DNA of 63,514 nucleotides, counting the filler, from Pseudovirgaria hyperparasitica (Eukaryota): assembly GCA_010093815.1 (NCBI GenBank). It is 6 parts of 6 records of this genome, joined end to end, with 100 filler letters (N's around TTAATTAATTAA, not from the genome) between each part and the next. Parts side by side here need not be neighbours in the genome. Positions count along the whole stretch, not along the records: positions 40,045 to 49,892 come from ML996626.1; 5 more parts are not named here. One strand, 5' to 3'. The notes beneath the pieces were generated by a model. It searched no databases. It worked only from the letters and a program-made list of their open reading frames with translations, and was not told the DNA's origin. Of this stretch, positions 1,110-62,000 are shown in pieces; the first letter of the stretch is position 1, and each line of letters starts with the position of its first letter. Both the position numbers and the translations under genes were made by a program.

Positions 1110-1129
1110 TTTTAATTCCTCTCTATATA

Positions 1130-8914: not shown

Positions 8915-8919
8915 GTAAC

Positions 8920-12040: not shown

Positions 12041-12049
12041 TAGGGAGTA

Positions 12050-13481
12050 TATATATCTATATACTTATTCCTTAGAGGCGCGACTATCCTCGCGCGGTAG
12101 CGGCTTTAACTATATCTTTTAGTCGTTCTATCGTCTTCGGGATAGTCTACTATCCTACCTAACTATCTTTCGGAGGGGAGGTTAGGCGTATTATAAAGGA
12201 AGGGCTCGTAGTAGGTATTATATTCTATAACTATCTCACGCCTCTTACTTTTATCGTGTAAATATATTCTATAACCTATTTACGTTTTATACACGTTAAC
12301 GACTATAACGGGTGTTTCCCGTCGTAGTTTAAATACTATACTATATCTCTATTTCTTAGTCCGTCTCCTCGCGGTTTATAAGGGCACTCCTAGATAGCGT
12401 GGTCCCTACGGTACTATCCGCACTTAGTCTTCTATAAGTACCTTTATATAGTATATCTATACCCTTAATAGTTAAAGTACTATATTATTACCTATACTCT
12501 ATTCTATAGCTCGGCTATAAGGAGCTCTCCTTCTATTAGGAATCCCTCCTATATAATATATTATACGAGGGCGGGGTCTCGGAGCTCTATAATTATAGTA
12601 GAGTGTTTTTTCGCCGTCGTCTTAATCGCCTATAGGTTCTTCTACCACGCTTTTACGATCTTAATCCCTAGGTATTTTCGCGCGTTAGATTATTCTATAC
12701 GCGTAATATCCTCTGCTCCGATAGCCTATCCCCGTATAGGTACTATATATACTATAATTAGGTATATAGCTACTCTAATAGACGTACTAGGGAAGATACT
12801 ACCTATCGCGTTCGGATCTCGCGAGATGTTTTACTATGTAGTATTCGTTATAGTAGTAAGTACTACCCTATCTAGTATAACTTTAGTAGCCACGACGCTC
12901 GACTATATTCCTTTCTATTTATTAATCTTATTTATAATTTCCTTTAGGGATGCCTATTAGACCTACGCTAGCGTGTCCTTATCCTAGATTACGATACGTA
13001 TACTATATACTCTATCTATAGTCCTAGTAGTCCTTAGTGCGGTAGCTCCGGGTATTACTATAATCTAAGCCCCCGTGTTAGGGCGCTTACCTTAGGATAG
13101 CTCTTCCTAGATTCTCCGTAGGCTGGCTTCTATTTAGTTAAGCCTACTACTAGGTTCCTCTTATGGCGACTTCCTTTCTTCCTCTATAATTTCTCTTAGG
13201 TTCTAGATAAGGTCCTAGAATATATAAAGAAGGGTCTTCTTTCCCTCCTTGGCGTCCCTCTCTATATATATTACCTAGTATTTAATTTTATCTAGGAGGG
13301 TCTCCCCTCTCGGGGTCCCCTCGGTCTAGGTTATCTATAGCGCTTCGCACCCTTAGTTAGTTCCTATATTTTAGATAGGTATCTAGCTATCTATATTAAT
13401 ATCGCTATATGGCCGTTTCTACCGTACTAGTAGGGGTATATCCGGCGTATACCGGGGTATTATAATACCTAAGGCCGCCAT
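12050..13481 (-). pseudogene. LINE ORF1 (gag-like, CCHC knuckles)
   Basis: ATG at 13481. RIP-degraded C-x2-C-x4-H-x4-C-type knuckles at ~12380-12485. Many RIP-derived stops. 3' boundary approximate. Confidence 0.7.
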
Positions 13482-13750
13482 GGTTATTAGTTAAGGGTAG
13501 CCCTTAACTAATAAAAGGGGGTCGGCATGTCGGCGTTTATTAGATATAGTCTATACTCGTGTTATTAAAGAGTCTTCGAGCGTATATATATAGTATCTCT
13601 ATACGTTGGTATTATCGCGTATTATATACTATACGTACGTACGTGTGTCGGAGGTTATTATACTTAGTATACTCTATCGTTTAATGTATGTAAATCGCTG
13701 TTTTACCCCGAATTAACTAGTTTAGTCCGTTAGGGTATGAGAAGTTTTTT

Positions 13751-13809
13751 TTAAAGAATATTATAAGATCTTTAATAAAATGAATACTATTAAAACAGAC
13801 TCTTTAAGT
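13751..13809 (+). mobile_element. Continuation of the copia RNase H region after the LINE insertion
   Basis: Starts with the second copy of TTAAAGAATATTATAA and continues the copia frame (KEYYKIFNKMNTIKTDSLS) up to the gap. Confidence 0.7.
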
Positions 13810-13909
13810 NNNNNNNNNNNNNNNNNNNNNNNNNNNNNNNNNNNNNNNNNNNNTTAATTAATTAANNNNNNNNNNNNNNNNNNNNNNNNNNNNNNNNNNN
13901 NNNNNNNNN
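13810..13909. other. Artificial contig linker (N44-TTAATTAATTAA-N44); also at 27321-27420, 39945-40044, 49893-49992, 59713-59812
   Basis: Five identical 100-nt spacers with stops in all frames. Complete contigs are 13411, 12524, 9848 and 9720 bp (decreasing). Confidence 0.98.
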
Positions 13910-27320: not shown

Positions 27321-27420
27321 NNNNNNNNNNNNNNNNNNNNNNNNNNNNNNNNNNNNNNNNNNNNTTAATTAATTAANNNNNNNNNNNNNNNNNNNNNNNN
27401 NNNNNNNNNNNNNNNNNNNN

Positions 27421-33594: not shown

Positions 33595-36490
33595 TTATCC
33601 GGGTCTTTTCACCTGTGCCGACAGAAGTTTTCGTATCATCGCGCTGGCAACCGAGGTGAGCCCTTCTTTGCGTGCTTTCAGTCTGGTCTGTCTATTCTCT
33701 GCGATCAATACCGCTGGCTTCGCACCTGGCACGATGTGACCTTCGCATGGTTCCTGTAATGTCATATCGCTGACCCGACGGGTGATGCCGATGATGACAT
33801 CATCCATTTTCTCGAGAGAAATCTTGTACGTAGCATTACTACTGTCGCCTTCCATAGCTTTGCACGGGTCAGTTATCGCATTGCCCTGAGAATCAACAAT
33901 CGAAAGCTTTTTCCCCTGCGATAATGCCGTGTTGATGCTTGTCAGAGCCTGTTCTGCTTGTACTCTTCGTGTGTCGTTTTCCATCGCATGAGCATAAGCA
34001 TGCAAGTTAGCAATGACTAGAAGTTCTCAGCACTACGATCTATCTGATGAAGGGTACAGTACCGTCTTCTGGGATGAGCACGCGCCAGTCTCCATTACTT
34101 AATAGCAGGACAAAGACATCGGTTTGGGAAAGGAGCATGTCTGTTTCGCAAATAATGACCTGCGTTAATATATGAGTTAGATCCAGGTGACGAGCTCTAT
34201 TCATAGCGAACGTACTGTATAATTACGAACGATGACCTTCTTGATAGTCGGCATGTTACTGGTATGGCTGCTCTTCTCAGTGGACTCGAGGAGTGGATCA
34301 TAAATATCCGAGAGAGTAGTGGTCGATACATCCCCAGTCATAACTAGGTCAGCTGAAACATTCGGAGGCCCAATCAATTCTTCGTTTCTGCGGAGTTGAA
34401 TGGGCTGCGACCTCGTGAAGTCGTGCTTTGGGGAAACAGCTCCATTAGCAGCCCATGTGTGCTTATTGTGGTCAAAATGAAGCGCACCGTTCTCCTGAAA
34501 ATGCTTAGTAGATACTTCACATGTGGACAGCGTACACTTTACAGATACCAGACGCATTCCAAGCCAGAGGATGTGCTCAATTCTTGATCTATGCGTTGAG
34601 GCAAGCTCAAGGTGTCGCTCATCCTCATCAATAAGAGTCTCAAACCAAGTGTCCGGGAAATAATTAAGGCTCCATATTTGGCCCCTAATAAGATAATCTT
34701 CCGGAAGGGGTCGCTTGTCAGCAGCATCTTGTTGCGGAAAGTCGAGTCGTTCTATAGGCAATTCTATGTTATCAGTTTTCGCGAGCGTGTTTAGGAAATC
34801 GGCAAGGGCTTCCCACGGCACATGCTCGAAGATAGCCGAGCAGTCGTAGTTAAGGGAGGAAACCCTGGTTAGAAAGACAAGCAAACAATGGATATGCGGA
34901 AAGACATTCTTGTCTCCAATGCGTTGAAGAGTCAACCTGAAAGTAGAGAACGTGATGCGTAAAGCATAAGCGAAAGTCGGTTGCGCAACAAGCTCAAGCT
35001 GACGAGCAAGGACGTCTGCCGTATCTTCCTCTGGCGGTGGCGTGATAGGTCTAACGTTATCATCGTTTGGGCCGCCTTGCGGTCGGGTGAGAGCCTCGAT
35101 TTCTCTTTTAAACCTGATGTCAAAATACTTACGAAGGATGGAACCTTCTTCTCCGTGGTTAAAAAGACTGGAGATGTTTATTACAGCGACATATATGCCT
35201 TGATCTCCCCATTTTGCAGAGACCCGACCGATATGAGGGTCCAACTGGCGGAGATAATCATCAGTAGTAGCATCAAATGTCTCAAGACATTCTTTGGTAA
35301 TCAGTATGCCGTGAGCCTTGATGTAAATCGTGTCAATATCGGCTGTATGCGCGTGAGCTGTATGCGTCCGGCCAAGTAATGTCATGATGATTGAATCTCG
35401 GGTACCCGTAAAAGGCTGAATACATGCAAGGGAGCGCGAATAGTGAAACAGCTGCTGTAGGGCATCTGGACGGGCGAGAATGGCCAAGTGGTGATACAAG
35501 CGACCAACGGTAGGGTTCTTGTCCACGGCTTCGCCATACCATGAACGACCGATAGCAGCCCAGGCCTCACGGTAAGGCATATCTTCGTCCTCAATGGCCA
35601 TACGATACCTACTAATATCGCCAAGGTGTTCAGTCCATGTATCGCGAAAAATAGGTACTGTCTCGTGTAATAGTGCAACCATCTTATATGCGATGTGGGT
35701 ATAGCATAGCATGAATTCAAGGCTTTTTGGAAGATGTTTGCGGAGTAGCTCGAGGAACGAGTGTATACCGTGCTTGCACATTCGAGCGGGCATGGAATAC
35801 TTGAGAGCAAGCTGCTGAAGAGCTGGGGTTGCTGATGGATGCTGGGAGGCAAGGAAGAAGTCGTGATGCTCATAGAGCAGCATACTGTGTAGTGAAATGA
35901 GATCTTGCCAGCGCTGAGGCGTCAGCTGCTCTTGGGACGCAGCCGCTTGGGCTTTATCCTCGCTAATGCATTTGTTTTCGAGCTTTACAAGACCTGCATA
36001 GATGTTCTTTACTTTGGCCGCAAGTTGCGATGGTAAGATGGGTCTAGAGTCTGGCTGCAAGAGTAGTTTGGGTTGCCAATCATCGGCAGAAAACTCTGGG
36101 TCACCGGGCTCACTTTTTGCGATTGTGGGAGTGTCGATATCTTCTACTGCTGGTAAACTGGGCTGACGAGAACCTGGGTTTCCGGGACTTCTATTCCTGC
36201 TGAGCAGTAAGTTAGTACGAAGCCACATGGCTAGTAACACATGGCTAGTAACACATGGCTAGTAAGAGTCACACTCACGCTTTGTGCGCTGCTTCCTCGC
36301 ATATCAGCCTCCGAAAAAGTGCTCTAGACGCGTGCGAGTTCACGTTTAGATTGATCAGCTGCTTTGAGTGACGGCTTTGCACATGGTCCCAGAGAGCGTT
36401 GCCCTTAAGGAATGTCTGGTCGGGACAGTAAGGACAAGCGTAGAGCTCATTGGTAGTGGCATTCTCGGGACCTTTTCTAGGCTGGATCAT
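33595..36490 (-). CDS. Est1/SMG6-type DNA/RNA-binding (TPR-like) domain protein with N-terminal C2H2 finger, multi-exon
   Basis: LLYEHHDFFLASQHPSA, HGIHSFLELLR, LGDISRYRMAIED, GRLYHHLAILAR...QQLFHY. Upstream exon CPYC...H...H, intron ~36277-36200. Downstream exons near 33595-34160 are tentative. Confidence 0.82.
36224..36265. repeat. 14-bp tandem repeat x3 (CACATGGCTAGTAA), intronic
   Basis: Seen directly. Confidence 0.95.
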
Positions 36491-38857: not shown

Positions 38858-40247
38858 TAAGACCTGAGCAATATACATGTAGTCTGATTAGCTTGATTTA
38901 GTCCGTGTTCCCATTCATTGCTCTCACTCCGAGGCAAGTCTCTAGGCTAGCTGCGATGAAATGTAAGTTATAGAGATGTAGCAGGAGTCATACATATAAC
39001 AGGCAGGGTGACTAGAAAGAGAAACGTTTGATCATATGCCCGCCAGGTACAAAGATAAGGACGAATGGGAGCTTATGATGACGCAGTAATAGCGGCGAGA
39101 TGATAGTAGCCCGTATTGAACTGATACTTGGCTGTTGCCATCTTCTTTCGAGTACTCGTCCTTTCCACCCAATGCTTGAACACACTTGTGGTAACCTTGA
39201 CTTTTCGAACATTATCAATGAACATCTGGGTTGTCTATACTCTGGACTTCCACGTTATCAAGTATGAGCCATAAGAGAGTACCGAGTCGCATATTTGGTA
39301 AGGCTTGTCGACTGTGCAAATGCCAGTCTACTTTGGGGCAGGACTTCAATATGAAGCCTAGGCAAGTCCACTTCTGAAATTCTTCGCTGATATCTTGCCT
39401 GTTCTGTATCACCTCTGCTATTAGCGCCATAGCTTTGAGTTGGTATACTCTGAACCACCGTCAGAAGCACCCCCATAACGATCCTTTTCAAAATTTAACG
39501 ATTCTCGCGTGGTCCCTTTGACTTACGGGCTCATCTGGCGCATCCTGCGAAGTAGCTTCCCCATATTACAATTAAATCCCGAGTCTAATAAATTACAGGC
39601 CTTAACACTTCACGTTCACGTTCACGTTCGCGCTCTCCGCCTCGCTCGTCCATCGTCACATTCGCGTCGGTTGCTTCCCTCTTTCTCGCCACGCGAACTT
39701 CTCTCGCGCTCGCGGTGTCGGCTGGACTTGCTATCACGGCCATCTCGTCGGCTGGCACAACCTTCGTTGCGCTCATCTTGAGAGCCTACTATCCCGATCG
39801 ATAATAATGGGAAGATCGAGCAGACAAGTGCACTAGAATTCATGGCGCCCGAGGTCTTGAAAGGCGGGTTTGATAAGGCGACACACGACCTGGAGGGAAG
39901 TCTCCGGCGGTCAATCCAGTAAGCGCGTGGTACACAGGTAATAANNNNNNNNNNNNNNNNNNNNNNNNNNNNNNNNNNNNNNNNNNNNTTAATTAATTAA
40001 NNNNNNNNNNNNNNNNNNNNNNNNNNNNNNNNNNNNNNNNNNNNGCGTGTAAATTATTTGTAAAGCGTGATGCTTTCATGCTGAGTCCAAGCGGTGAACC
40101 CCCGAAATGGATCGAATATTACTAAAAGATTGACTAAAAGATAATCCCTCACGGAATGAAACTTGTAGTATAGAAAACATACCTTAAAGTATCCAAACTA
40201 ATATGCTGAGCCATGACAGTACTGAGTCGGTATCACTGAGTCGAGCT

Positions 40248-40300
40248 CCATGCCCTTATTGAGCCATGCCCTTACTGAGCCATGCCCTTAGTGAGCCATG
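40248..40300. repeat. 16-bp tandem repeat (GAGCCATGCCCTTA.T) x3-4
   Basis: Seen directly. Confidence 0.85.
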
Positions 40301-40853
40301 ATCTTACCGAAGCGTAGTCTTGGTTTACTAAAAATAGCCCACGAAGCAGTCTCTATCCAGTCTGATCGGTCTATGTCGAATCCTCGCTTTCGGTTGGAAT
40401 GATGCTACTTTTAGATTGCGCGATTGTATCTAAGCAATCGTCGTGCTGAGCTTTGAAGTAGGTTGAACATACAACCACACTCTTCTCGATACCAGTCCGC
40501 AAGCATGTGTCCTGTCGTCTGGATCTCCCCAACAACTCCTTCTCGTCGTGGGAGTAAATGGAGAAGTTCTTTCGAGACTCTTCGGTCCCACATATTTGGT
40601 CGTCACAGACCTGCCGGCCACGACAGCTGTGAATCGCTTCTAGAGCCACCAATGCTCTTGGTAACACAGTACGGGCAGACACAAATGAGTATGAGCTTCG
40701 AAAGTGAGGTCACTCCGACCGTCTTGCACTCTTGACGTTGCGATAAGAACGGGTAGCATCCTTGGCATGACTATCTCTATCTTTTACATGAAGCTGTCAT
40801 CTGCCCCTCGACTTAGCGACTGCTCACGAACATTCGACCTCAATGTAGATAAG

Positions 40854-41522
40854 TCAGATGCATCCGACTTGCCATTCCGATCGTGCTGTCTCAAGGGACT
40901 GTTCTGCCGTGTTGGAGCGTAGTATGCCTTGCTGATAACGGAACTGATCCTCGACGTGCTTGGCGCTCCAGAAGTCGTGCAGCAAGTACCCCTGCGTGTG
41001 CAGATTGCCTGGGTCCGTCCTTCGGTCTTTCCAGCGAACCCGATACAATAGGTTATTCTGGAGCTGGAGCAAACGTAAAATTTCATCATGGATAAGTCGA
41101 GCTCCTGGCACATCCCTCGAAAGGGATATCATATGATCTTGCATCTTCTTCTCATGATCCCAATGTGATTTCAGCTCTGGCTTCCATTGACCCGAGTCCA
41201 TTTGTTGTCTAAAATGTTGCAAATTTCTGTCGACACGTGCCTGTCCTTGTGCTATTATCCTGTCGCAAAAACAGATCATGAAACGGAGATGTTCGTGGTT
41301 TTCGAAGATAGTCTTCAGTAGTGATTTGATAGCTGTAGGGTTGTTAATAGCATTGGAGATGATTACGTTTGTAGAGGGTGTTTGGTTTGAAGGAATGTGA
41401 GATGATTGCTCTGAGGCTAAGAAGTTTGAAGATGGTGCCAACGAGTTCGGCGGTTCATTCCCTGGCATCACCGCATACGGTTCTAATCCAGGCTGTGGAC
41501 AGTACTGATCCGTTCCTATCAT
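40854..41522 (-). CDS. Hypothetical protein (~220 aa)
   Basis: Open frame; probable start MIGTDQY downstream of the BTB gene. No recognisable motif. Confidence 0.4.
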   Translation of the reverse strand: MIGTDQYCPQPGLEPYAVMPGNEPPNSLAPSSNFLASEQSSHIPSNQTPSTNVIISNAINNPTAIKSLLKTIFENHEHLRFMICFCDRIIAQGQARVDRNLQHFRQQMDSGQWKPELKSHWDHEKKMQDHMISLSRDVPGARLIHDEILRLLQLQNNLLYRVRWKDRRTDPGNLHTQGYLLHDFWSAKHVEDQFRYQQGILRSNTAEQSLETARSEWQVGCI

Positions 41523-41574
41523 GAAGCTCCCATTGGTCGGCGGTGCAATCGAATCGAAACAGATGTTTATTATG

Positions 41575-42411
41575 TCAATGTCTTTTATTCTCATAGAACA
41601 ATCGCAACAAGTTTGCACCAAGATGTCCCTCTTCACACAAGATAGAGTAGAACGATTCATAGCGTCCAATCTTGGTGAAATGTGCACCGTGATACAACGC
41701 CACCATATCCTGCAGCTCAGGATAATTCTCACTAAACGCAAATCGAGTTAACGCTAAAATATCTTGGTAACGCCTTTGGTCCAGGGTAAAGACTGAAAGA
41801 GTCTTATGCAGCTTTTGAAGACTGAGACTGATAAGACTGTCCACCATCTTCTCTTTGGCGAATGCGTAGAGCCGCGCATGGGCAAGGAAGACGTACTCTG
41901 CTTTTTCTGCGCCGGCACTATGAGGAGCAACACGAAATGATTGGCGATAATCCTCATACGGAGTAGTGGCACAATATACTCTTCTCTCAAAATCTGGTCT
42001 TCTGACATGAAAGTCCTGCTCTCCAACCACTGGTTGATATGAAGCAGCGGTCGCTTCATCCGCGTACTTCGTCTTTCTCTTCCCCTTGCCCATCTTGGAC
42101 GTAGGTATATCCCAATCCCACTGTGAATTCGGTTTGTTTTGGTATGCTTCATCCTGTACCTCATTCATTGCTTCTTCAGCCGTATCCACAGGCGTGGTTT
42201 GTAGCTCTTCGGTCCAGTCATCGTCGACGACGTATGGCGGTGCTGCATAATCGCCAGTATATGCGAATGTGCAGAAGCGACTAAAGTCATCCGGGTTGAT
42301 TTGTGGCAGAAGGACCGTTTTCTCCTCAGCCTCCTTGAACGCCGAATTATCGCCAAAAAGTCTTTTGAAATAATCAGACAACGGAGCAAGGATACCATAA
42401 TGTACAACCAT
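41575..42411 (-). CDS. BTB/POZ-domain protein
   Basis: VHYGILAPLSDYFKRLF...FKEAEEKTVLLPQINPDDFSRFCTFAYTGDY and the fungal motif FLAHARLYAFA...L..LSLQKLHKTL. Confidence 0.85.
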   Translation of the reverse strand: MVVHYGILAPLSDYFKRLFGDNSAFKEAEEKTVLLPQINPDDFSRFCTFAYTGDYAAPPYVVDDDWTEELQTTPVDTAEEAMNEVQDEAYQNKPNSQWDWDIPTSKMGKGKRKTKYADEATAASYQPVVGEQDFHVRRPDFERRVYCATTPYEDYRQSFRVAPHSAGAEKAEYVFLAHARLYAFAKEKMVDSLISLSLQKLHKTLSVFTLDQRRYQDILALTRFAFSENYPELQDMVALYHGAHFTKIGRYESFYSILCEEGHLGANLLRLFYENKRH

Positions 42412-43301
42412 GGGGACCTCCTCTCTGCCGACAAGAAATGTGACTTTTCGATGAATACGGCAAATGTGGAGTCTGTTCTAGAGAGTCTCTGATGGAATCA
42501 ACTGAGAACGGGTTTTTGCTCCTGCGGCGAGATTGGAGCAGAGTCACAAGGCGTCAAATTGATAGAAGGCTGTCCATGCATGCCAGCGTGTCAAAATGTG
42601 CGTCGCCCAGAACTCGCTTACCAGCTCTTTTGGACCCCTTAGTGTGGCCACTCTGTGCAACATATGCTCAACGCCATGTTAAGCTCAAATCTTCCGAGTC
42701 TAAGCAAAAATTCAGTCTGGTTTTGGCGTTCTAGAGTGATGGACAGAATAATGATATCAAATAGACTTTACAGACCCAGAAGTAAGAGTATCGTCATATT
42801 CCTCCGGCTCGTCTTAAGATCTTTCTTATCTGTATATGTGGATTCCATAAGGATAAGTACCTAATTGCACCGATTTGAGTAAGCTATTACTAAAGCTAAC
42901 GTGATCTAATTAAACAGAATAGAGCAATAAGTCTACACCGCAACAGTAAGTACAGACCAAGAAAATCCCCCCCCCAGAGACCAGATCTAGAGTTATCTTC
43001 TGGCTTTGAATATAAATTAATGTTATCATAAGATATATAGGGACCATGTCTGACACGGACTAATCCTTGGAAGTTAGAGTGCCTAAGGCAGATAAGCAAG
43101 CTAGTACACAATAGCAAGCGGGGTGATTCGGCTCCAGCTTCAGACCCATTATCAAGCCGTCTTAGTTCTAGTGGCACGGCCCAAGTTGTCCAAGACCTTT
43201 GCAAACATGGTTCTCATTGTTGAAATTCGTCTCACGAGCGTACCGAACTACCTTTAGAAGACAAAGCCTCTATCCGGTGCGGTTCGGCCACCCGCCATGT
43301 A

Positions 43302-43527
43302 CCATCTTGGACCCCATGAAGCCATAAACCCTATAGCGCCACAGGTGCCCCATAAGGCCCCTAAATGGCTTCCTAGCGCTCACGTCTTTAGAGGGTGGTG
43401 TAGCGTATCCCTTAATCGGGATGGCGGGTCTTAAAGGGGATTTTAGCGGGTCTGAGGGCGCCTTTTGGGGGCTCTGGTTGGCAGATGTGGCGCTATAGGG
43501 TCTGTGGCTCCATAGGGTCCAGGACTG
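43302..43527. mobile_element. Tc1/mariner-type MITE
   Basis: ~45-bp imperfect TIRs (...GGACCCCATGAAGCCATAAACCCTATAGCGCCACA / TGTGGCGCTATAGGGTCTGTGGCTCCATAGGGTCCAGGACTG) flanked by TA on both sides. Confidence 0.75.
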
Positions 43528-43759
43528 TATCTATGCCACGTGTGGCTAAGCTGCTTGGCCTTGCCCCATGCCGCTTACTCACCTACTAGCTGTAAGGCAA
43601 CACAACTCTAAACATCCACCTAAGCTCAGCCTAATAAATAATCATAGGCAACTCTAATAGGTGGGAGTAGAGATTACACTCTGCTAAGCGCAATGCTCTT
43701 TGTCCTCAACAATAACCACGGGAGCTTCTACCTGGTAACCTTCACTGACGGTAATATCC

Positions 43760-44122
43760 CTCCGTACGCCATTCTCTCGCACACGTAGGGACGTGCCGAA
43801 GATAATAAGGTCACGTACATGGATATAGTAGGAGGCACTAGTAAGAACAAAGGTGGGATTCGAGAAGCTACAGTTCTGCAGCAAGCAGGTCAGAGAACAT
43901 GGCCTCGACCACTTCTAAATCGATACCTGCTGCATTAACAAGTCAAGCAGCAGCGAGCTCGCCGAGGCGATCAACTCAATATTTCGCTAGTACCAGCGAG
44001 CAGAACGATAATAAGTCTACCTCATAGATGTGTCAGTACGCACCCACGATGGCCAGCTTCCCCATGCGGAGTGGGCATCAGCGCTTCGCAACAGCCGATG
44101 GTTCACGCGAGGATGGACAGTT
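43760..44122 (+). pseudogene. HET-domain (heterokaryon incompatibility, HET-E-like N-terminus) pseudogene
   Basis: PYAILSHT*G...GFEKLQFC...F*IDTCCINKSSSSELAEAINSIFR*YQ...VYL.DV...SRWFTRGWT. Stops fall at conserved Trp positions and the frame is truncated after RGWT. Confidence 0.92.
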
Positions 44123-44444
44123 AACTAGCAGCTCTTCGAATGAGGCCGTTTATATTTTCGCCACTGAATGCAATTCTCACTTGACTGGATGAACTAAAAC
44201 CTGCTTCATTTGCCTCGGTATTTTTAATTTTGTATAAAGTCACTATTCCCCATCTGTGTCCTCCAGCCTGCAGCTCGACCGCGACTTTAAGCTGCCAGAG
44301 TAAAATCAAAATTCAATATGACCGTATCCTGGATCACACCGTGAAATTTTGGGTTTTGCAGTCAGACTGGTCGCATAGAACCTGAGCTCTCGTTAGCAGA
44401 ATCTATTATAAATTTCGACCATATTGTGAGTTACTTTGACCGGT

Positions 44445-44687
44445 TCAGGACTTGGAGAGAAGAAATCCGTAGCAGCCATTGCATACTTTTGCGCGAGCTT
44501 TCCTATCTACCGCAACAAGCTTCGCCTTCTTGCTTTTAGTGCACCGCTCACATGTAAACGCAGTGGCAGCGCTAAGTCGGTACAGCTTCAATGTACTATT
44601 TAAAGGATAATCCTTCACCACTGTACAATCAGGCGGTAGAATGTCTTTATCGCAATCTTCGAAATTAGAACTGTTCGCGTTTTGCAT
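44445..44687 (-). CDS. Small C4 zinc-ribbon-like protein (80 aa)
   Basis: CERCTKSKKAKLVA...VCNGCYGFLLS (two CxxC pairs). Confidence 0.6.
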   Translation of the reverse strand: MQNANSSNFEDCDKDILPPDCTVVKDYPLNSTLKLYRLSAATAFTCERCTKSKKAKLVAVDRKARAKVCNGCYGFLLSKS

Positions 44688-45704
44688 CTTTACAAAGGTC
44701 AGTAATGGGCAATATAGCGGACACTTATTAACCTAGCGGGCAGTCATGACACGTACATTTAGACGTGGAGGAGACTTCGTGGGGAAAATGTACCAAGGAA
44801 AATTTCCGTATTGATAGTTCATAGCCGCATAACCATATATACAAAGCTTGCGCTTTAGCGGCTTCTACAAAGAGGCGGTCAGTTTAGGGCCTATGCCGCG
44901 GACAACCAAGTCTGCAGCCAGTATAAGGCGCTAGCGATACTCGAAGGTGGAAGACCTATCAGCCTATAGGAAACAGTACCATTTAAGACTTGATTTCGGA
45001 ACTCCGATCTAACGTTACATTTTAGGTATCCATGGATGGAAGACAATTCTTTTTTTCTGCAAACCCTTACCGCCGTTCACAGTGCACAGCTTTCGTATGG
45101 TTGGCTAGATAGCGCTATTCTTATCTTCTGCAACATGCCTAGCAGTGAAAATTCCCATTACAAGCAGCGGCAACTATTAAATCACGAGCCCTGGTACGAA
45201 CAACCAGGCTGGTATATGTTCTCCTGAATTAGCACTTTCCACTGGCAGCAAATTGCATACCCACCTATTATCTCTGTATCCCAAATTATTCGGGGTGGGT
45301 CAGGGTGAATGAACAAACCAAGCCAAACTACCGCATTGTACCATGTTGTAATCGAGTCAAAGGAGAGTCTAGCTGCCAATATATATGCACGTCGAGATCC
45401 TGGATCCATGGTATGGCTTGGATCAGAGCGCTACTACCCTAGTCGTAGCTAAACTTTTAGTGTTGCCGAGCATTGATCAAGAATAGGCATCGAACTCCAG
45501 CACGTCTTGCAGTTACCCCACCACAAGACCAAGAGGCCCTAGCTGCCGTACTTAGCCCGTCACGGTGAGACCCTTGTCTTAGATTAGGTGTCGCTCCTTC
45601 TCCATTCCTTTCTACAGAATTACTTCGTCCCTTTTCCAAAATTACCGCGGTACCTTCAACGAAACCCTGATGACTCCAACAACACGTAGAGTTGGCCAGT
45701 ATGT

Positions 45705-46790
45705 ATGATATTCGCTACTTCGGCTGGTTGCTTACTCTATGCAAGCTTGATGGCAAGCGCACCAGTCAAATGCATCGTAAGCAGCGCACGGGTGCCGTAT
45801 TACGTTCACACAGACGTGCTGTCAACAGCGAAAGGATCTACCATGGATGTCCGTCTCAATGGTTCTTGGAAACAAGATGGTGAAGAATACCTGGATTGGA
45901 CGGATTTTGATTTGGATACTGTTCAATGCGTGCTCAATTACCTCTACACTGGCGATTATCACTGTGCAAACATTGCCTGCAACAAGGATATTGGAATAGA
46001 TGATTCGGATATTGCTGCTACCCCCGAGGTCGATCTGGGTAAAGATTACATGAACATTCGGTTGAGCAAGCTTAGTGCTAATCATCTAGATAACCGGCCC
46101 CTGACCCACCAAAACATTTGTCTTCCTCTAGCCGATCGTCCTCTAACTCCGCTAAGCCAATGCCTTAGTCTTGGACTGCCGGAAGAACGCATGACGACTT
46201 TTGCTGGAACCCTATCTAGCAAAGATGCTGAACTTCGTGGTTACGGTAAAAATGGCCAAGCAGTATTGACACATGCAAAGGTGTATGTGTTTGCACATCA
46301 GACGTTGTTTTCAGAACTAGCACAATTTGCCTTGCAACGTCTCACTCAAGTTCTGGTTCTAGTAGATGCCGAAGACAACAGCCTGTTCCCTGGCCTTTCA
46401 GATGCAATTCGTCACATATATAGTAGGACACCGGGACAAGACCTGTCGAGTCTACCAAGGGATCCAGGCAGAAACATCATATCTCAATTCGTGGCACTCA
46501 ATTATCCTGATCTTACTGGAGATAACCTATTTGAGCTGATCTGTGAGGGAGGAGACTTCATGGCTGATGTTTCCCATAAACTAGTCCGACAAATTCGTGC
46601 GGGTTGTAATTTTCACGATTCCTTGCAAGACCAAATCGATCGATTGCGCACGGATTTGATTTCACTGCAAGTCAAGTATGATGATAAAGACGGAGAATTG
46701 AGAGAGGCTAAAGAGAAAATTAATGGCCTGGAAGCATCAAGCAGGGGATTTTCTAAAAAGAAGAAAAAAAGCCGAACTTACGGGATTTGA
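45705..46790 (+). CDS. BTB/POZ-domain protein with C-terminal coiled coil
   Basis: YYVHTDVLS...WTDFDLDTVQCVLNYLYTGDY and LTHAKVYVFA...ALQRL...IRHIYSRT. Probable in-frame intron at ~46039-46089. Confidence 0.82.
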   Translation: MIFATSAGCLLYASLMASAPVKCIVSSARVPYYVHTDVLSTAKGSTMDVRLNGSWKQDGEEYLDWTDFDLDTVQCVLNYLYTGDYHCANIACNKDIGIDDSDIAATPEVDLGKDYMNIRLSKLSANHLDNRPLTHQNICLPLADRPLTPLSQCLSLGLPEERMTTFAGTLSSKDAELRGYGKNGQAVLTHAKVYVFAHQTLFSELAQFALQRLTQVLVLVDAEDNSLFPGLSDAIRHIYSRTPGQDLSSLPRDPGRNIISQFVALNYPDLTGDNLFELICEGGDFMADVSHKLVRQIRAGCNFHDSLQDQIDRLRTDLISLQVKYDDKDGELREAKEKINGLEASSRGFSKKKKKSRTYGI

Positions 46791-47109
46791 GAGTACAAAA
46801 ATTGCATGCATTGCAATTCGCTTCGCAGGAGTTGTTATCGACCACTGCGAAAGCATATGTATGAATTTACAGTGCTTCAGGCACTATCATACTACTACTC
46901 CGACGAGGATGGCAGTGCACACTATGCAAAATACAGTTCTGGTAAATAAAGCTGAGGGACTTTATTGATAATGTCTCAATACATAAGTAGAACATGCCCC
47001 TTTTACACAGAGTGCATAGTCATCCGCAACTTAATGGCTGCAACTCTTGTTACTGAATTTTTAGCTGTGATCCGATCTTACTTCGTAACTATGCCTCATT
47101 CACTTCTAC

Positions 47110-49479
47110 TCACATAGCCCCATGAAGTTCTCTAATAGCCCTTCGCTTCTCACCCACAAATTTACATACTCCATTCACATCAGACTTGGACTTAATATCG
47201 CACAGTCGCTTTCTCTTCCGGTTTGGAGATAAAACACCCAGCACTGGCCGCATCGGTGGCAACTGCGCTCTCTCAAAATCGATGACCAACACCTGCTGGG
47301 TCTCGGCGCTCCACAGCAGGTTCCGCGGCATGGGATCCTTGTGCAATACTGCCAGATTGTGGATCGCTGTAAAGGCACACTCTGTCTGCTGTGATAGCAA
47401 GGCTCTATTTTTTGGGGTGATATACTTTGCAATGGGTCTACCACCATGACTCATGAACATTATGTGAACGAGCTCAGCAATGCCATCGTAATAGTATGGA
47501 CGTGGCAGGTCAATATTTCCAAGATGTACTGGCACAGACTGTCCCTGAATAGGGCGTAACCGCTCATACACATCAGCTTCGTGCCGAAGGTGTTGTACGA
47601 AACACGCAGGAGTCCCTTTCGCGGCAACAGTGTATCCATGCGACGACAAGCGGACGCGGAAGAGTACACCACGGGATCCATGCACTCGCAAACACTCCAC
47701 ATCGTGGTCCATATCGTTCGCTAGCTGTTCTTGCATGAGCTGGAGAAACGTGGCCCGATCGATCTGGTGCTTGAGCGTACCATGATCTTGAAAGTTCGGG
47801 CAGGCTCGGTCCAGAGGTCCGCCATCCAGCAAGCCTCGAAGACAGCCCTGTGTGCAGTACGATCTTTTCTGACCTTCTGCATCAGAGGCTGCAGCACGTC
47901 CAACGGACCGTTTCGTCGGGTTCTTCGTTTTCGTCTTTGGGTTTCGAGGCATAGGTCGCTGAGTCGATCGTGAAGGCGTGTCTGGGTCAGACTCGCTATC
48001 ACTACTGCTCCTTTCCTTGCGTGGGGAACAGTTCGGCGAAGGCTTCCGCCGTCGAAGTTGGATGGGTGTATCGCGAAAATATGGGATGTCCGACCGGGGT
48101 CTGTAATCGGATGTATCTCTTTCAGGAGTTGGAAGCTCTTCGAGCAACTCATTGTATTCAACCTGCCAAGTCTTCAGCTGAGCCAGGGCCCTGTCCCTCC
48201 ACTGTTGGGCCCGAGGTCTGCCACGCATCGCGAGAAGAGTGAACGCAAGCATTTGGCCCACGGCAGTCAGATGCAAGCGGTTGGTTTGATTCAGCCCGGG
48301 AGTCCATCCGGTATCCGGTCCCACATCCCCATTTGGTACTGAGAGAAAATAGTACACGGTGCGAGGATCTTCGCCAACACGCAAAAATATGTAGGCTTCA
48401 CCAGTACACACCACACCATACTCCAGTCCTGCTTTCACCATGTAGGAGAATGGCTGTGTGATGACAGCTGCAATCAGACGGCGATACTTTGTCTTCATAT
48501 CTTCGTCATCGCGCACCTGCACAATTGTGTCTATGTCCATCTCTTTTAAACCCTCGTAAATAGTACCGGGAGAAAGCTTGTGGGGGGCTTTGTATTCGAT
48601 GAGGAAGGCTGGGATGCGTTGAGGTGCGTCTTGCGAGTCATCCGACACACTGTAGACACAGAACTGGTCTGCACGAGGACGCGACGACTTGGTAGCATTG
48701 TCAGGTAGCGCGATAGTGGCAGATTCTGAGCGCTGCGCGATCTCGCGTTCCTGCAAACGTGGCGACCGTCGCCGGCCGCGTGATATGCTCAACTGCTGTA
48801 CACCATCCTGAATTGCGCTTTCGGGGCTCAGGGTGTTGCCATGATTTTCAAATCTGACAGAGCCCTTCAGTCCAAGTTTCTCGCGAAGTGCGGTATCGTC
48901 GAATAGCATGGTGATAACAGCAGAGACGGGGTCTTCGACAGTGGTACGTTGGAAGTAGTTAAGATCCATCTCCGAGCCCAGTAGCCTCTTGCTAACATTT
49001 TCGCCCGTCTCTTGCATATATTGTATCGATGAGAACTGCCGCCTAGTCACGAAATTAGACTCCATCAAGTCTGCCCAGATAGCTTCCTGCGGTTCCCCGA
49101 AGTCTTCCCAAGCGCGAATGTAATCGGGACGAGGTTTACGGTCCGCATTGCTCGGATCGCCTTGAGTAGACTGCGTAGCGTCGGTTTGGACAGTGAGACC
49201 AAGGGAGAGGTGATGGTGACAGTGGTGGAGGAATTCAGGCAGTGATGTTTTGCGGGTTTGTTCTTCGGCATCTCTACGAGCGTGTTCTGCTTCATTTCGA
49301 GCGCTCTCCGCATCTTCCCGTCGACGTTGTTCTTCCTTCTGAGCGTGTTCTGCCTCTTTCTGTACGCGTTGTGCCTCTTTCTGTGCGCGTTCTGCCTCCT
49401 CACGTCGGCGCTGCTCCTCTTCACGTCGAATTTTTTCCTCGTGATAAAGCTTCTCGTAATCGGTCGGCTGTTTCGACAT
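47110..49479 (-). CDS. Spok-family protein (coiled coil + PD-(D/E)XK nuclease + Cys cluster + kinase-like domain), ~789 aa, intronless
   Basis: Heptad coiled coil; TSLPEFLHHCH; RADQFCVY...IEYKAPHKL; QPFSYMVKAGLEYGVVCTGEAYIFL; YCTQGCLRGL...LDRACPN; HGSRGVLFRVRLSSHGYTVAAKG; LHKDPMPRNLLW...VIDFERA; NRKRKR. Start taken as MSKQ. Confidence 0.88.
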   Translation of the reverse strand: MSKQPTDYEKLYHEEKIRREEEQRRREEAERAQKEAQRVQKEAEHAQKEEQRRREDAESARNEAEHARRDAEEQTRKTSLPEFLHHCHHHLSLGLTVQTDATQSTQGDPSNADRKPRPDYIRAWEDFGEPQEAIWADLMESNFVTRRQFSSIQYMQETGENVSKRLLGSEMDLNYFQRTTVEDPVSAVITMLFDDTALREKLGLKGSVRFENHGNTLSPESAIQDGVQQLSISRGRRRSPRLQEREIAQRSESATIALPDNATKSSRPRADQFCVYSVSDDSQDAPQRIPAFLIEYKAPHKLSPGTIYEGLKEMDIDTIVQVRDDEDMKTKYRRLIAAVITQPFSYMVKAGLEYGVVCTGEAYIFLRVGEDPRTVYYFLSVPNGDVGPDTGWTPGLNQTNRLHLTAVGQMLAFTLLAMRGRPRAQQWRDRALAQLKTWQVEYNELLEELPTPERDTSDYRPRSDIPYFRDTPIQLRRRKPSPNCSPRKERSSSDSESDPDTPSRSTQRPMPRNPKTKTKNPTKRSVGRAAASDAEGQKRSYCTQGCLRGLLDGGPLDRACPNFQDHGTLKHQIDRATFLQLMQEQLANDMDHDVECLRVHGSRGVLFRVRLSSHGYTVAAKGTPACFVQHLRHEADVYERLRPIQGQSVPVHLGNIDLPRPYYYDGIAELVHIMFMSHGGRPIAKYITPKNRALLSQQTECAFTAIHNLAVLHKDPMPRNLLWSAETQQVLVIDFERAQLPPMRPVLGVLSPNRKRKRLCDIKSKSDVNGVCKFVGEKRRAIRELHGAM

Positions 49480-49743
49480 AGCGATAAAGGATGAACATAA
49501 AACGCACAAGCAGGGCGTGGTCTGCGTTCGAGAGAATCCAGGACATTAGTATCGTTACGTAATCAACCCTGACTAAGCTCTCCCCGTTAAAGATCACTAG
49601 AACCCAGAGAAGCAGTGAAAACACGACAACAGCGAGAACCGAAATTTTTGGAATTCAGTCGATCAAACGTACGCATATACCTTCTCATTAGGCTACTTGA
49701 CTTGCTGTGAGCCAGGCGCATCGCCCAGTGCGACCCGGACACC

Positions 49744-49892
49744 ATGGCAGCCGCGTGGCCTCAAGTGATGGTGTGGCCCACCGCGCTCCGCGAGCACGCA
49801 ACTCATCTCAGCAAGCACCTGCGAGACATCCTCCTCAACATCGAACGCTCGCAGGATCAACCAGTGCCCTCCGATCAGGTCAAAAATATCAT
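49744..49892 (+). mobile_element. Probable 5' start of a retroelement ORF1-like gene, truncated by gap
   Basis: MAAAWPQVMVWPTALREHATHLS... resembles N-termini of fungal non-LTR gag-like proteins (from memory only). The contig breaks here, as expected for a repeat. Confidence 0.4.
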
Positions 49893-50441
49893 NNNNNNNN
49901 NNNNNNNNNNNNNNNNNNNNNNNNNNNNNNNNNNNNTTAATTAATTAANNNNNNNNNNNNNNNNNNNNNNNNNNNNNNNNNNNNNNNNNNNNGCCACCAG
50001 TGTGGAGATATCAGCGCGCTACTGAAATTCCGTGCTACGTCGGCGCGAGGATAGAAGGTACCCTTGTACGGTACTCGAGTCTCGGACAGGATAGAGTCTC
50101 AGGTATACTTTGCTTTTGTGGGACCATATCTTCATGTTACTATAGTACACAATAGCATCTCTCGTATTCACGACCCCGCGGTCTGTTGGTAGTCTGCCCT
50201 TGAACTTATTCTTTTTAGTCCGGTTTATCTTCTACTTCAGGCCCCCAACCAGCCTTCTCAGCCTCGATTTAACAATGTAGTACGTGAGACCACTATACCT
50301 CTGGTATAGGGAACTACTCCAAATCCTCTGGTGTCGGTGCGCTGAAGCAAATGCAACCTAATGACGAAATGTCATAACTAATCATACACGAATTGCAAGC
50401 GGCCTGCTCAATTCAAAGCTTAGGCAGAGTAGTGTATCCTA

Positions 50442-59000: not shown

Positions 59001-62000
59001 GATATTCCCGTTCTAGTGAAAGTGTAAGGCAGAGGCACATATGGTCTAAGCGGAAGCTCTCGAAACTCCCGTCGCTACATTAGAGACATTTATACAAAGG
59101 GAACGACAGGGACCGTAGAAAAGTGGCAATAAGAACCCAGTCAAATAAGCAGGATCAAATCGACTTCTGACAAGGGGTGAGTGCTCAGAAGGGGTTGTGT
59201 ATCAAGGATTCATGTGTGGCTTGCTGCGACCGGTCAGACAGACGCCCTCTTGATCGATCGTTCTCTGCATACATGCTCGTTCTGCTCAGCCGTATGTGTT
59301 CGGGCTCGGAAGCGGCACAGGCCTTCCGTGTATGGATCCACATCCATTTGTTGTTGTACAGTGCGCAAGCGACTGGTGGGTCAGGTTCCGAGAAGAGTTC
59401 TAATTGATCGGGATGTACCTTCACTGGTGGCTGGCCATGACAACCCTAGCAACTTTGCAGGCCGCAATGCAGCTGCTTATAAAGGTAACACTCACGATTT
59501 ATTGTGTCACTTATCATGAAAAAGACACGAAGTAGTGCGGGCATCACCCTCACCGGTCACAGGCACCTCAGACCCGGGTGGTGTGCCGACTCCGCACATA
59601 GCTCTATGAGTACCCCTGTCCCTTATCGTGATTCACAAGCAAGCATTGTAGAAGCCATGGCTGTAGAGGATGATGCTAAACGACTGGGAGCAGAGGTCGG
59701 CGAGTTTGATGTNNNNNNNNNNNNNNNNNNNNNNNNNNNNNNNNNNNNNNNNNNNNTTAATTAATTAANNNNNNNNNNNNNNNNNNNNNNNNNNNNNNNN
59801 NNNNNNNNNNNNCTTAGCTGGACTAGACAGGACTGTCAACCAACTTTGTCACGCTTTACTCTACCGAAGCTCCCAGATTGAAACGCTGCGTGGCATTTTG
59901 ACGATAAACTGCATTATACCTTGCAGTGATGAGAGCGCGCAGGAAGCTCTTCACTCTCCTGCCTAGTAAGATATGGGTCTGCGAGCCGCTGCGTGAACCG
60001 TTGAGCAAGGATAGCCTGTGCGTTGTGCGTAAGGTCCTTGCGATTCCATGGCTCAGTATCCATGGCCTACCAGTTTAGCCGATACCAGGCGGCGACTTAG
60101 TGGATGGCTCTTCCTTGATGTTGCCCATACGATGGAGGTACATTGCTAGTGGATCCCCCGGGCTTGCATCAGAACCAATGTCAAACTCCCAGTCAGGTCT
60201 CGAGCACGTCACGAATATCATGCTGTGACTGGCGTCCACCGAAGTCGCATGACTACGCACCCGGCAATGTTTTTATCCTTGGCTATGCATAAAGCCACTT
60301 ACTCGGTTCAATGAGACTATCCCCTGTTGTAGAGAATGAGTTACAAGTACTTGACCGGTCAATTATCGCGACTCGATCGCCGGACGCCAGCTCACTGGCC
60401 TCCCATCGGATGAGTCTACCATGCCCTTGTCCCCTGCAATGCCCTGGCTTTGGTTCTGTCAGAGACCTAGAAAGATCCAATATCATTTTGTCGTCGCAAA
60501 ATTGTGATACCAAACGTCTGCAACAACGTGGCTTCCCATCCTATGAAAGCAATCCACGATGAGTGTATACTAGGCTTGGTAGCGTAACAATACACAGATC
60601 ATGCTCTCTACAAAGAGAGCAGCTAGGACAGTCTCGGGGATCAGGAGCCATTAGAAGAACACAACAGATTCTCTTATCAGAAACTGTGTTACAGCAAGTC
60701 AAAACACGTCATTTCTATTCCATGTGACTCTCAATAATGTCTGGGGGAATCAGGGCCCAATGATGCAAAGCTAGCCCACCTGCGTTATCCAAGTTACGAT
60801 CGTGACCACGGGAGGTGGCGTAAAATCTGCTGTTAGGGTAACCACCAAGTTTACGATTGCACCATCTGGTGGGGACTCTTTCGACGGGGAAGGCTGCAGT
60901 GGCTCGCTGCCGGATTTACGTTTACTACAACGCCTGTTGGTTGACCAACCTGACTGATACCAGAAGGATTTGTACACCAATTACATACAAGATCGTTGCG
61001 TCAAACGAACTTCAACAAGACAAGTACAAAATGAGAAAGTATAAGTAAAGATATGGGGGAGCTTCCATATGTATAGGGTAATCTAGAAAATGAAGAAGTA
61101 ATGCTCTTATTTCGGTTGTTTGTACAGCTTGCTACGAAGATGATCGAGTCTCTGAATAATCGCACTGAGAGGTGGCATAGCGTCGGCTGTAATTGTTCTG
61201 CTTTCGTGGTCAACGACCGCTTCAACGCTACGAGCCTCTTCGAGTTTTTTGTACAGCTCTGGGTCAAGGAGTGGTGATTGCATGCACTCAGAGAAAATGT
61301 CCGGGTACGAAAGTCTTCCCCTATCCACCTGAATCAAGCGTTCATTGAGTTGCTTAAGGCTAGTATCAACTTGATGGCAAGCCTGGAAGAGTGCTTTGGC
61401 CCAGATTGGAGCTTCCATTCTGTTTAGTGGCTGTCTTGAAGTCTGTGAGATATTTGATGCCTCTGGCCTTGTGAGGAGACTCGTGTTTCGTGATCCTTGT
61501 ATTGCGACAAAACCCGTATTGGGACATATTGGTAGTTTTGCAATACGGGGGGTTGCATCGGATGTCTCCTCTCGCTCCTTGTCGAATCTTTGTTTATTTA
61601 CAGGTGTACAATCGATTATCCCACCACTGCATTTTATTGAGTTCAAGAAGCCATAAGACCCTAACTTCCGCTTACCTGCAGCTCTTAAAAGTAGGCCTGC
61701 GTCGTGCTAGTATCATTGGTTTAGCACACTTGGAACAGAGAGTTTGACCATTGAATCGTGAATGTCGTCCAACATGGCTAGAAACCGGTTAGTCCTATGA
61801 TATCGTACAGCTTTCTAATGTTTTACCTGCAGGAGTCGCAAGAATGGTTGGGACGTGATTGGTCGTAGGCACAGTCTTCAAGGCCATGACGAGAGCACAT
61901 TCCACAAGGCTTGGTCTTGTCACATCGAGAGTCGGTTGCCCTGGAAATAGATTAGTATACTTTACTTCATGATCTGAATCTTTTACTTACCGACAGTTTT

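What the first reader, a model, noticed from the sequence alone, without database searches (positions are those of the whole stretch)
47110..49479. Intact Spok-like meiotic-drive gene
Seen: single-exon ~789-aa ORF with the full SPOK architecture and apparently intact key motifs: nuclease D...EYK, cysteine cluster YCTQGC...CPN, kinase HKD...N and DFE, a basic C-terminal NLS-like stretch, and a 7-aa repeat coiled coil (EAERAQK/EAQRVQK/EAEHAQK...). Known: Podospora SPOK proteins are single-gene killer/resistance drivers (nuclease domain needed for killing, kinase domain for resistance), and homologs are common in accessory DNA and Starship cargo. It shows no RIP damage although this genome clearly has RIP. 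Drive activity here is untested.
Basis: partly seen in the sequence, partly recalled or inferred. Interest (0 to 1): 0.75.

Follow-up and report, generated by a model that had tools for sequence, protein, structure and literature searches.

The report
Intact fungal spore-killer-family (Spok) gene
A mould carries an intact, distant relative of the known fungal "spore killer" genes, which pair a DNA-damaging poison with its own antidote in one protein; such relatives are common in fungi, and whether this copy kills anything is untested.

Summary
Confirmed: a stop-free 789-aa ORF (minus strand, 49479-47110) of the Spok family. An identical database protein carries Pfam SPOK2_N and is named Pseudovirgaria hyperparasitica. 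It aligns end to end with Podospora SPOK1-4 at only 28-29% identity. Every SPOK3 residue shown to matter is kept: K297, C542/C546/C560, D715. It sits in a large clade far from all tested drivers.

It is one of three intact paralogs, which group together and are under purifying selection, plus five relics. All eight lie on small contigs holding 8% of the genome.

The missing RIP is not special: paralogs are at most 67% identical per 400 nt, below the RIP threshold, and a 93%-identical duplicate on the same contig is un-RIPped too. No Starship link was found for this copy. The window joins unlinked contigs.

Most likely a nuclease-poison/kinase-antidote selfish gene acting in vegetative nuclei or, given sex, in asci; drive is not shown. 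New member of a known family. No earlier scan note on it was found.

The parts
47110..49479 (-). Spok-family gene, single exon, 789 aa
   Evidence: 28-29% identical over 723-762 aligned columns to SPOK1-4; no splice joint inside it in two spliced (RNA-like) runs of one sample
49255..49458 (-). N-terminal coiled coil (aa 8-75) with three 7-aa repeats at aa 28-48
   Evidence: one long helix H8-75 in the AlphaFold2 model; repeats
48826..49254 (-). Domain 1 of unknown function (aa about 76-218)
   Evidence: aligns with SPOK3 domain 1; pLDDT mostly above 90
48145..48684 (-). Predicted PD-(D/E)xK nuclease, the killing domain (aa about 266-445): D271, E295, K297, QxxxY Q342/Y346
   Evidence: columns equal SPOK3 D219, D238, K240, Q294, Y298; the nuclease fold was not independently recovered by fold search
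47866..48144 (-). Disordered linker (aa about 446-538)
   Evidence: pLDDT under 50 at 489-536
47767..47856 (-). Cys/His cluster C542-x3-C546-x13-C560-x5-H566-x4-H571
   Evidence: equals SPOK3 C493/C497/C511/H517/H525; H-H spacer 4 instead of 7, as in 87 of 416 family members
47245..47757 (-). Kinase-like resistance domain (aa about 575-745): K621, E634, H713-x-D715, N720, D734-F-E
   Evidence: equals SPOK3 K578/E591/D667/N672/D686; kinase fold, top match Rio2 Z 14.2, rmsd 3.3, 161 aligned, tied with many other kinases
47203..47226 (-). Basic NLS-like stretch PNRKRKRL
   Evidence: sequence; a similar basic stretch in SPOKs and relatives; import not tested
49617..49892 (+). Start of a young repeated element 138 bp upstream of the Spok ATG, cut by the contig end; class not identified
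   Evidence: 100% identical at the ends of C11, C50, C52; matches one end of a 4,999-nt contig in both RNA-like runs
45705..46790 (+). Convergent neighbour gene, no Pfam hit, spliced at 46037-46089
41575..42477 (-). BTB/POZ gene with a 92.7%-identical, un-RIPped copy on C45; internal control for RIP
40045..49892 (.). Contig G000:C62 (9,848 bp), repeats at both ends; the only DNA known to be linked to the gene

Best explanation
An intact, catalytically competent Spok-type poison-antidote gene, an old member of a small lineage-specific family living in the repeat-rich, poorly assembled part of the genome. Likely working, by transfer from SPOK1/SPOK3 experiments: the protein enters nuclei; the PD-(D/E)xK domain (K297) damages DNA; the Cys cluster plus kinase domain (D715) of the same gene product neutralises this in nuclei that carry the gene. 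A nucleus or spore that inherits protein but not the gene dies. The gene thereby keeps itself and its linked DNA. Since the fungus is described only as asexual and this compartment shows no recent RIP, the main arena is probably vegetative (loss of dispensable DNA, hyphal fusion), with spore killing only if it outcrosses. Shown here: ORF, homology, residues, kinase fold, purifying selection, location. Inferred: nuclear import, killing, resistance, any transmission bias.
For: Collinear homology to SPOK1-4. All 14 listed catalytic or cluster positions kept; 4 departures at 81 highly conserved columns against a family median of 3. Confident model, pLDDT 85.4, pTM 0.82. Purifying selection: versus paralogs pS 0.80 (saturated) and dN 0.34-0.37; C38/C36 dN/dS 0.16, nuclease 0.05. 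The three intact copies form one clade, support 1.0, matching the 'duplicate and diverge within a lineage' pattern of PMC6660238. Birth and death: 5 relics; the C26 relic has lost aa about 157-584, the whole nuclease. 8 of 8 loci on contigs C25 or smaller = 8.1% of bases, as are 8 of 8 DUF3723 matches. In the gene's own clade 149 of 163 proteins keep both active sites. Neighbours differ: 0 of 47 independent metagenome loci share a C62 neighbour. Vegetative killing and chromosome stabilisation are published for Spoks (PMC6660238; PMC12693581; bioRxiv 10.64898/2026.10.04.756499).
Against: Only 28-29% identical to proven drivers, patristic distance about 3.8; I found no assay of a member of this clade. 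Intact motifs do not guarantee activity: 4 of 6 FuSpoks were inert in yeast. dN/dS here is far below the 0.66-0.98 among Podospora SPOKs, and there is no recent near-identical copy, which fits an old, perhaps retired gene. Small contigs can be assembly fragments of core chromosomes (C28 carries a Dicer). No captain, FRE or DUF3723 on C62; only 2 of 28 long metagenome loci carry such a marker. The asymmetry test is weak: 20 nuclease-broken versus 9 kinase-broken of 416, many being alignment gaps, and metagenome loci L147 and L154 break only in the kinase half, which a lethal poison should not tolerate. A young element sits 138 bp upstream and could have disturbed the promoter.
Confidence: 0.5

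Rival explanations
1. A retired or resistance-only Spok-like gene: fixed in the species, with little or no killing, kept because its kinase half protects against other Spoks or because deleting it is itself lethal.
For: Old and strongly conserved. [quoted passage not shown] A DNA run under another organism label holds 87-97% identical pieces of both the gene and its neighbours, a hint that the locus is shared with a relative.
Against: The nuclease half is as conserved as the kinase half (aa identity 0.61-0.62 versus 0.60-0.61 to paralogs), and K297/D271 are intact. A resistance-only gene should let the nuclease decay.
Confidence: 0.25
2. An active classical meiotic driver whose main effect is killing sibling ascospores in heterozygous crosses.
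For: Same architecture as SPOK1-4. The genome has a MAT1-1 alpha box on C9 and no HMG-box match on that contig, which fits an outcrossing species. Heavy past RIP proves past sex.
Against: No sexual stage in the passages seen. A 92.7%-identical 893-bp duplicate and 100%-identical element copies on this contig show no RIP bias, which suggests little recent sex. No segregation data exist. This reading overlaps with the best explanation; it differs in claiming meiosis as the main arena.
Confidence: 0.12
3. A recently silenced copy: the element inserted 138 bp upstream displaced the promoter, and RNA over the ORF is read-through from the convergent neighbour.
For: Element boundary at 49617. The RNA-like contigs run 45746-49426 through both genes, strand unknown.
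Against: The ORF is covered for 2.3 kb in both runs, long for a 3' read-through, and it has no damage. Contigs cannot show a start or strand.
Confidence: 0.06
4. This deep clade has an ordinary, non-selfish cellular role (such as defence or regulated cell death); selfish behaviour arose only in the Podospora/Fusarium branch.
For: Raised, and judged unlikely, by PMC12693581. The family is very large: 772 representative proteins at E up to 1e-30.
Against: Patchy, multi-copy, often broken (24 of 79 metagenome loci have stops, several frames or extra hits), no conserved neighbours, mixed fungal classes among the nearest relatives.
Confidence: 0.07

Closest known systems
Podospora SPOK1-4 meiotic drivers (PMC4022471, PMC6660238)
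   Same: Single exon; coiled coil, domain 1, PD-(D/E)xK nuclease, linker, Cys cluster, kinase in the same order; all mutationally tested residues conserved.
   Different: 28-29% identity; separate deep clade; EYK and DFE where SPOK3 has DYK and DFD; H-x4-H for H-x7-H; paralogs 56-78% identical under purifying selection instead of over 90% identical with dN/dS near 1; no drive data.
Fusarium FuSpoks on accessory or dispensable chromosomes (PMC12693581; bioRxiv 10.64898/2026.10.04.756499)
   Same: Multi-copy, on small repeat-rich contigs; vegetative toxin-antidote role plausible.
   Different: 28-29% identical to FOXG_14281 and FOXG_07107; no accessory chromosome or Starship shown here; copies are old, not a recent burst.
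Spok-like genes of Pezizomycotina (Pfam PF27653 SPOK2_N; PMC4022471 Fig. 6 text)
   Same: This is the class it belongs to; nearest relatives are 53-56% identical hypothetical proteins of other Dothideomycetes.
   Different: No difference in kind; no assay of this branch was found in the searches made.
Starship cargo Spoks (Enterprise, PMC8092012; PMC9156397)
   Same: Paralog loci lie near FRE-type, TPR and DUF3723 genes on C36, C38, C39, C42, C26.
   Different: None of these on C62; the one DUF3435 locus is on C28 among core-type genes and has a TGA in the match; no element boundaries found.

Membership tests
Spok protein family | Full-length collinear homology to SPOK1-4 | tested here: met
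   28.4-28.9% identity over 723-762 columns, E 4e-62 to 4e-67
Spok protein family | Pfam PF27653 SPOK2_N | tested here: met
   Precomputed on the identical database protein P0002; name. The local Pfam copy returned only a weak APH hit.
Spok protein family | N-terminal repeat coiled coil | tested here: met
   dimerisation not tested
Spok protein family | PD-(D/E)xK catalytic residues and QxxxY | tested here: met
   D271, E295, K297, Q342, Y346 align to SPOK3 D219, D238, K240, Q294, Y298; Pro at Q+1 occurs in 15 of 416
Spok protein family | Nuclease fold confirmed against solved structures | tested here: inconclusive
   Fold and profile searches were filled by kinases; the domain was not folded alone
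Spok protein family | C-x3-C-x13-C-x5-H-x7-H cluster | tested here: met
   All five residues present; last spacer x4; spacer varies across the family
Spok protein family | Kinase-like domain with catalytic Asp | tested here: met
   D715 = D667, with K621, E634, N720, D734; kinase fold Z 14.2
Spok protein family | No intron in the coding region | tested here: met
   Open frame; no splice joint in the ORF in RNA-like contigs that do splice neighbours (one sample)
Clade II Spoks (Podospora drivers and close kin) | Nests with Podospora SPOKs in a tree | tested here: not met
   Falls in a 163-member clade (support 1.0) apart from the 119-member clade with SPOK1-4 (support 1.0); midpoint-rooted FastTree, sampling shaped by my queries
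Active Spok toxin-antidote | Kinase-dead allele toxic, rescued by wild type; nuclease-dead allele harmless | not testable with these tools
   Needs expression assays
Meiotic driver | Biased segregation or spore killing in heterozygous crosses | not testable with these tools
   No crosses; MAT1-1 present
Meiotic driver | Presence/absence polymorphism in the species | tested here: inconclusive
   One genome only; runs with at least half of the words are all one organism label, two samples
Starship cargo | Inside an element led by a DUF3435 captain with target-site repeats | tested here: inconclusive
   The 9.8-kb contig ends in repeats; no captain on it; the only DUF3435 locus is on C28

The most novel reading that the evidence does not exclude
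The three intact, mutually distant paralogs (56-78% identical) are three independent, non-cross-resistant poison-antidote modules that lock in the accessory DNA of a mostly asexual mycoparasite by killing nuclei that lose it. The whole untested branch they belong to (hundreds of proteins across Dothideomycetes, Eurotiomycetes and lichen fungi, about 29% identical to SPOKs) would then be functional, making single-gene addiction modules an ancient, class-wide feature of filamentous ascomycetes rather than a Podospora/Fusarium speciality.
Probability: 0.25. Interest if true: 0.6.

Novelty: new member of a known kind. Interest (0 to 1): 0.3.

Why it matters
As a sequence it is ordinary: Spok-like genes have been known since 2014 to be widespread, patchy and multi-copy in Pezizomycotina. 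Its value is as a test case. The assayed Spoks in the papers I read come from Podospora and Fusarium. This gene and its two intact paralogs sit on a distant branch, keep every active-site residue and can be put through the published yeast/E. coli assay directly. A positive result would extend poison-antidote activity across the family and allow mapping of what sets resistance specificity, an open question in PMC6660238. A negative result would show that motif conservation does not predict drive.

Tried and rejected
1. 'No RIP' as a sign of protection or recent arrival: rejected; the Podospora Spok block also lacks a RIP signature (PMC8092012).
2. Using the rest of the window as genomic context: rejected; it is a concatenation of contigs.
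3. Starship membership: not found. The test used only this genome's own marker proteins as queries and at most 10 kb of flank, so it can miss distant markers.
4. Single-sequence fold: useless, pLDDT 38; replaced by an alignment-based model. No solved Spok structure: best PDB sequence hit E 0.16; profile hits were kinases. No nuclease family among the Pfam hits shown for 15 aligned members (25 of 29 families shown).
5. Expression: no holder is on record as RNA. Runs X3/X4 look like RNA because they skip GT-AG introns and lack intergenic cover. Their contig covers the ORF but also the convergent neighbour and stops at 49424-49426, about 55 nt inside the ORF's 5' end. One sample, contigs only: no strand, start or level can be read.
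6. Run X5 (share 0.20, laid): 87-97% identical pieces of gene and neighbours, none bridging the two. Of 349 differences only 40 were shown; the 22 inside the ORF are 12 synonymous and 10 not, none at a tested catalytic site. Too partial to use for selection.
7. Poison/antidote asymmetry in natural broken alleles: weak and mixed.
8. The public 777-aa gene model ends differently through a 3' intron; not supported.
9. Class of the upstream element: Pfam and atlas gave nothing; all four identical copies end at contig ends.
10. A first guess at the Podospora-proximal query (P0238) missed SPOKs but led to the right clade.
11. A weapon against the rust host: considered and dropped; the protein starts with a charged coiled coil and nothing here points to secretion (no predictor run).
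12. Which of the three DNA-methylase loci is RID was not tested.

Full report
Observation. The finding is a 789-aa ORF on the minus strand, 49479 to 47110, without internal stops. The window is not a continuous region: five 100-nt linkers separate contigs. The gene lies on the 9,848-bp contig G000:C62, window 40045-49892. A database protein identical over the aligned length, on a contig of the same size, is named hypothetical protein EJ05DRAFT_495259 of Pseudovirgaria hyperparasitica, a rust-parasitic hyphomycete (PMC3317363, passages). That public model is 777 aa with a different C-terminus; spliced contigs show no joint there.

Family. The database protein carries PF27653, which is SPOK2_N. 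I retrieved SPOK1-4 themselves. They align with the protein from about aa 41-76 to 759 at 28.4-28.9% identity, E 4e-62 to 4e-67. I aligned 416 of 511 proteins held (680-860 aa; three database duplicates of this genome's genes dropped). SPOK3 D219, K240, Q294, Y298, C493, C497, C511, H517, H525, K578, E591, D667, N672 and D686 map to D271, K297, Q342, Y346, C542, C546, C560, H566, H571, K621, E634, D715, N720 and D734. K240 is needed for killing; the cysteines and D667 are needed for resistance (PMC6660238, sections 17-18). The protein departs from consensus at 4 of 81 highly conserved columns; the family median is 3. A model from 149 sequences is confident (pLDDT 85.4, pTM 0.82). The C-terminal domain matches kinases (Rio2 Z 14.2, tied with many). 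The nuclease fold was not independently tested, because kinases filled the lists.

Distance from the known drivers. In a midpoint-rooted FastTree of the 416 proteins (617 columns), the gene falls in a 163-member clade (support 1.0). SPOK1-4 fall in a 119-member clade (support 1.0) on the other side of the root, at patristic distance about 3.8. Sampling reflects my three queries. The nearest relatives from other species are 53-56% identical hypothetical proteins. The family is large: 772 representatives at E up to 1e-30. In the listings of four literature searches I saw no title or abstract reporting an assay of a Dothideomycete Spok or any Spok in this genus; full texts of those listings were mostly not read, and subscription journals are largely missing.

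Copies in the genome. The search gave 12 matches from 15 candidates, at 8 loci: three intact genes (C62; C38, 58%; C36, 55%) and five relics. The three intact genes form one clade, support 1.0. Synonymous sites between C62 and the others are saturated (pS 0.80) while dN is 0.34-0.37; C38 versus C36 gives dN/dS 0.16, and 0.05 in the nuclease. Among Podospora SPOKs the ratio is 0.66-0.98. So this is an old, conserved family, not a recent burst. The C26 relic lacks aa about 157-584 and has stops. The C25 relic has many TAG stops and lies beside strongly RIP-marked DNA. All 8 loci are on contigs C25 or smaller, 8.1% of bases. So are 8 of 8 DUF3723 matches and 5 of 15 FAD_binding_8 matches, three of them on Spok-bearing contigs. 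These are conserved Starship cargo types (PMC9156397, passages). C62 itself has none. The only DUF3435 locus is on C28 between a gamma-glutamyltranspeptidase and a Dicer. Small contigs need not be accessory chromosomes. Among 79 metagenome loci (47 after merging near-identical ones), 0 of 47 share a C62 neighbour and 2 of the 28 with at least 10 kb carry a Starship marker detectable with this genome's proteins.

RIP. The genome has strong RIP (composite +1.2 to +1.9 over window 1-13,000) and the ORF has none (-0.56). This is expected: RIP needs at least 80% identity over at least 400 bp in Neurospora (PMC3017866, passages), and the best 400-nt window against either intact paralog is 66.5%. Moreover the BTB gene on the same contig has a 92.7%-identical 893-bp duplicate with only 11 of 44 transitions in CpA context, and the element upstream has three 100%-identical copies over the 275 bp assembled. 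The compartment has seen little recent RIP, which points to rare sex. The genome has a MAT1-1 alpha box on C9; none of 6 HMG-box matches is on C9 (an intron-split HMG box could be missed).

Transcription. Two runs of one sample skip GT-AG introns of neighbours and lack intergenic cover, so I read them as RNA; they are not on record as such. One contig spans 45746-49426, covering the ORF and its convergent neighbour. Strand, start and level cannot be read. A repeated element begins 138 bp upstream of the ATG and matches a 5-kb contig in those runs; its class was not identified.

How it most likely works. By transfer from SPOK1 and SPOK3: nuclear protein; nuclease half damages DNA (PMC9972908, abstract and Discussion); Cys cluster and kinase half neutralise it where the gene is present; nuclei or spores without the gene die. 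Spoks kill vegetatively, and one stabilises a dispensable chromosome in Fusarium (bioRxiv 10.64898/2026.10.04.756499; abstract, one Results section, Discussion; supplements not seen). For an apparently asexual fungus this vegetative arena is the better guess (0.5). Against it: 4 of 6 FuSpoks with conserved sites were inert in yeast (PMC12693581, Results parts 1-2 of 3), although one of them is the gene later found active in its host; Podospora has three other Spok-like genes at fixed loci in two strains (PMC4022471, section 14). My test for poison/antidote asymmetry was weak: 20 nuclease-broken against 9 kinase-broken of 416, many by gaps, and two metagenome loci break only in the kinase half. 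Rivals: retired or resistance-only (0.25), mainly meiotic driver (0.12), non-selfish role (0.07), silenced by the upstream element (0.06).

Other reading used: PMC6660238 sections 9, 19, 22 and supplementary file 4; PMC12693581 supplement, part 1 of 30 and two searches, with alignment rows cut at 400 characters; PMC8092012 passages.

Verdict. A real, intact Spok-family gene; a new member of a known and widespread kind. It works like a Spok on sequence and structure, but is not a member of the driver clade, and drive is untested. The scan's notes held nothing on this protein or on Spoks. Interest 0.3.

Noticed in passing
window 13810-13909, 27321-27420, 39945-40044, 49893-49992, 59713-59812: 100-nt linkers (44 N, a 12-nt AT motif, 44 N) join separate small contigs; neighbours across them are not known to be linked.
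   Followed up: yes
window 1-13809 (G000:C58): Whole contig strongly RIP-degraded, GC 0.32-0.44, no ATG ORF of 100 aa.
   Followed up: no
window 49617-49892: Young repeated element, identical at the ends of C11, C50, C52, with an ORF starting at 49746 and a 5-kb contig in RNA-like runs; missing from the assembly beyond about 300 bp. A LINE-type ORF1 is my recalled guess, not tested.
   Followed up: partly
window 41575-42477; L068:6378-6932: BTB/POZ gene with a 92.7%-identical copy on C45 next to a dynamin-like gene; no RIP bias.
   Followed up: partly
window 44185-44936, minus strand: Small gene with two introns, spliced in RNA-like runs, with two CxxC-type motifs; no Pfam hit.
   Followed up: no
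window 34201-36228, minus strand: 675-aa ORF with an Est1 DNA/RNA-binding (TPR-like) match, on another contig.
   Followed up: no
L013:5053-7437 (C38) and L003:1483-3825 (C36): Two more intact Spok-family genes, 78% identical to each other; the C36 copy follows a ferric-reductase-type piece and a TPR gene.
   Followed up: yes
L047:6090-7100 (C26): Spok relic with an internal deletion that removes the entire nuclease domain, plus stop codons.
   Followed up: partly
L049:5921-7280 (C28:181920-183279): Only DUF3435 (Starship captain-type) locus, in three pieces with one TGA, between core-type genes.
   Followed up: partly
L076:8125-8856 (C9): MAT1-1 alpha-box gene downstream of an APN2-type endonuclease; no HMG-box match on this contig.
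   Followed up: partly
L080:2891-7288 (C26): Cluster of a GH18 chitinase piece, a collagen-repeat ORF and a T5orf172/MUG113 gene next to a DUF3723 fragment.
   Followed up: no
window 43855-49892, run X5: A DNA run under another organism label holds 87-97% identical pieces of this locus, with higher summed depth over the Spok gene (8-40) than over neighbours (about 5), possibly several copies or strains.
   Followed up: partly
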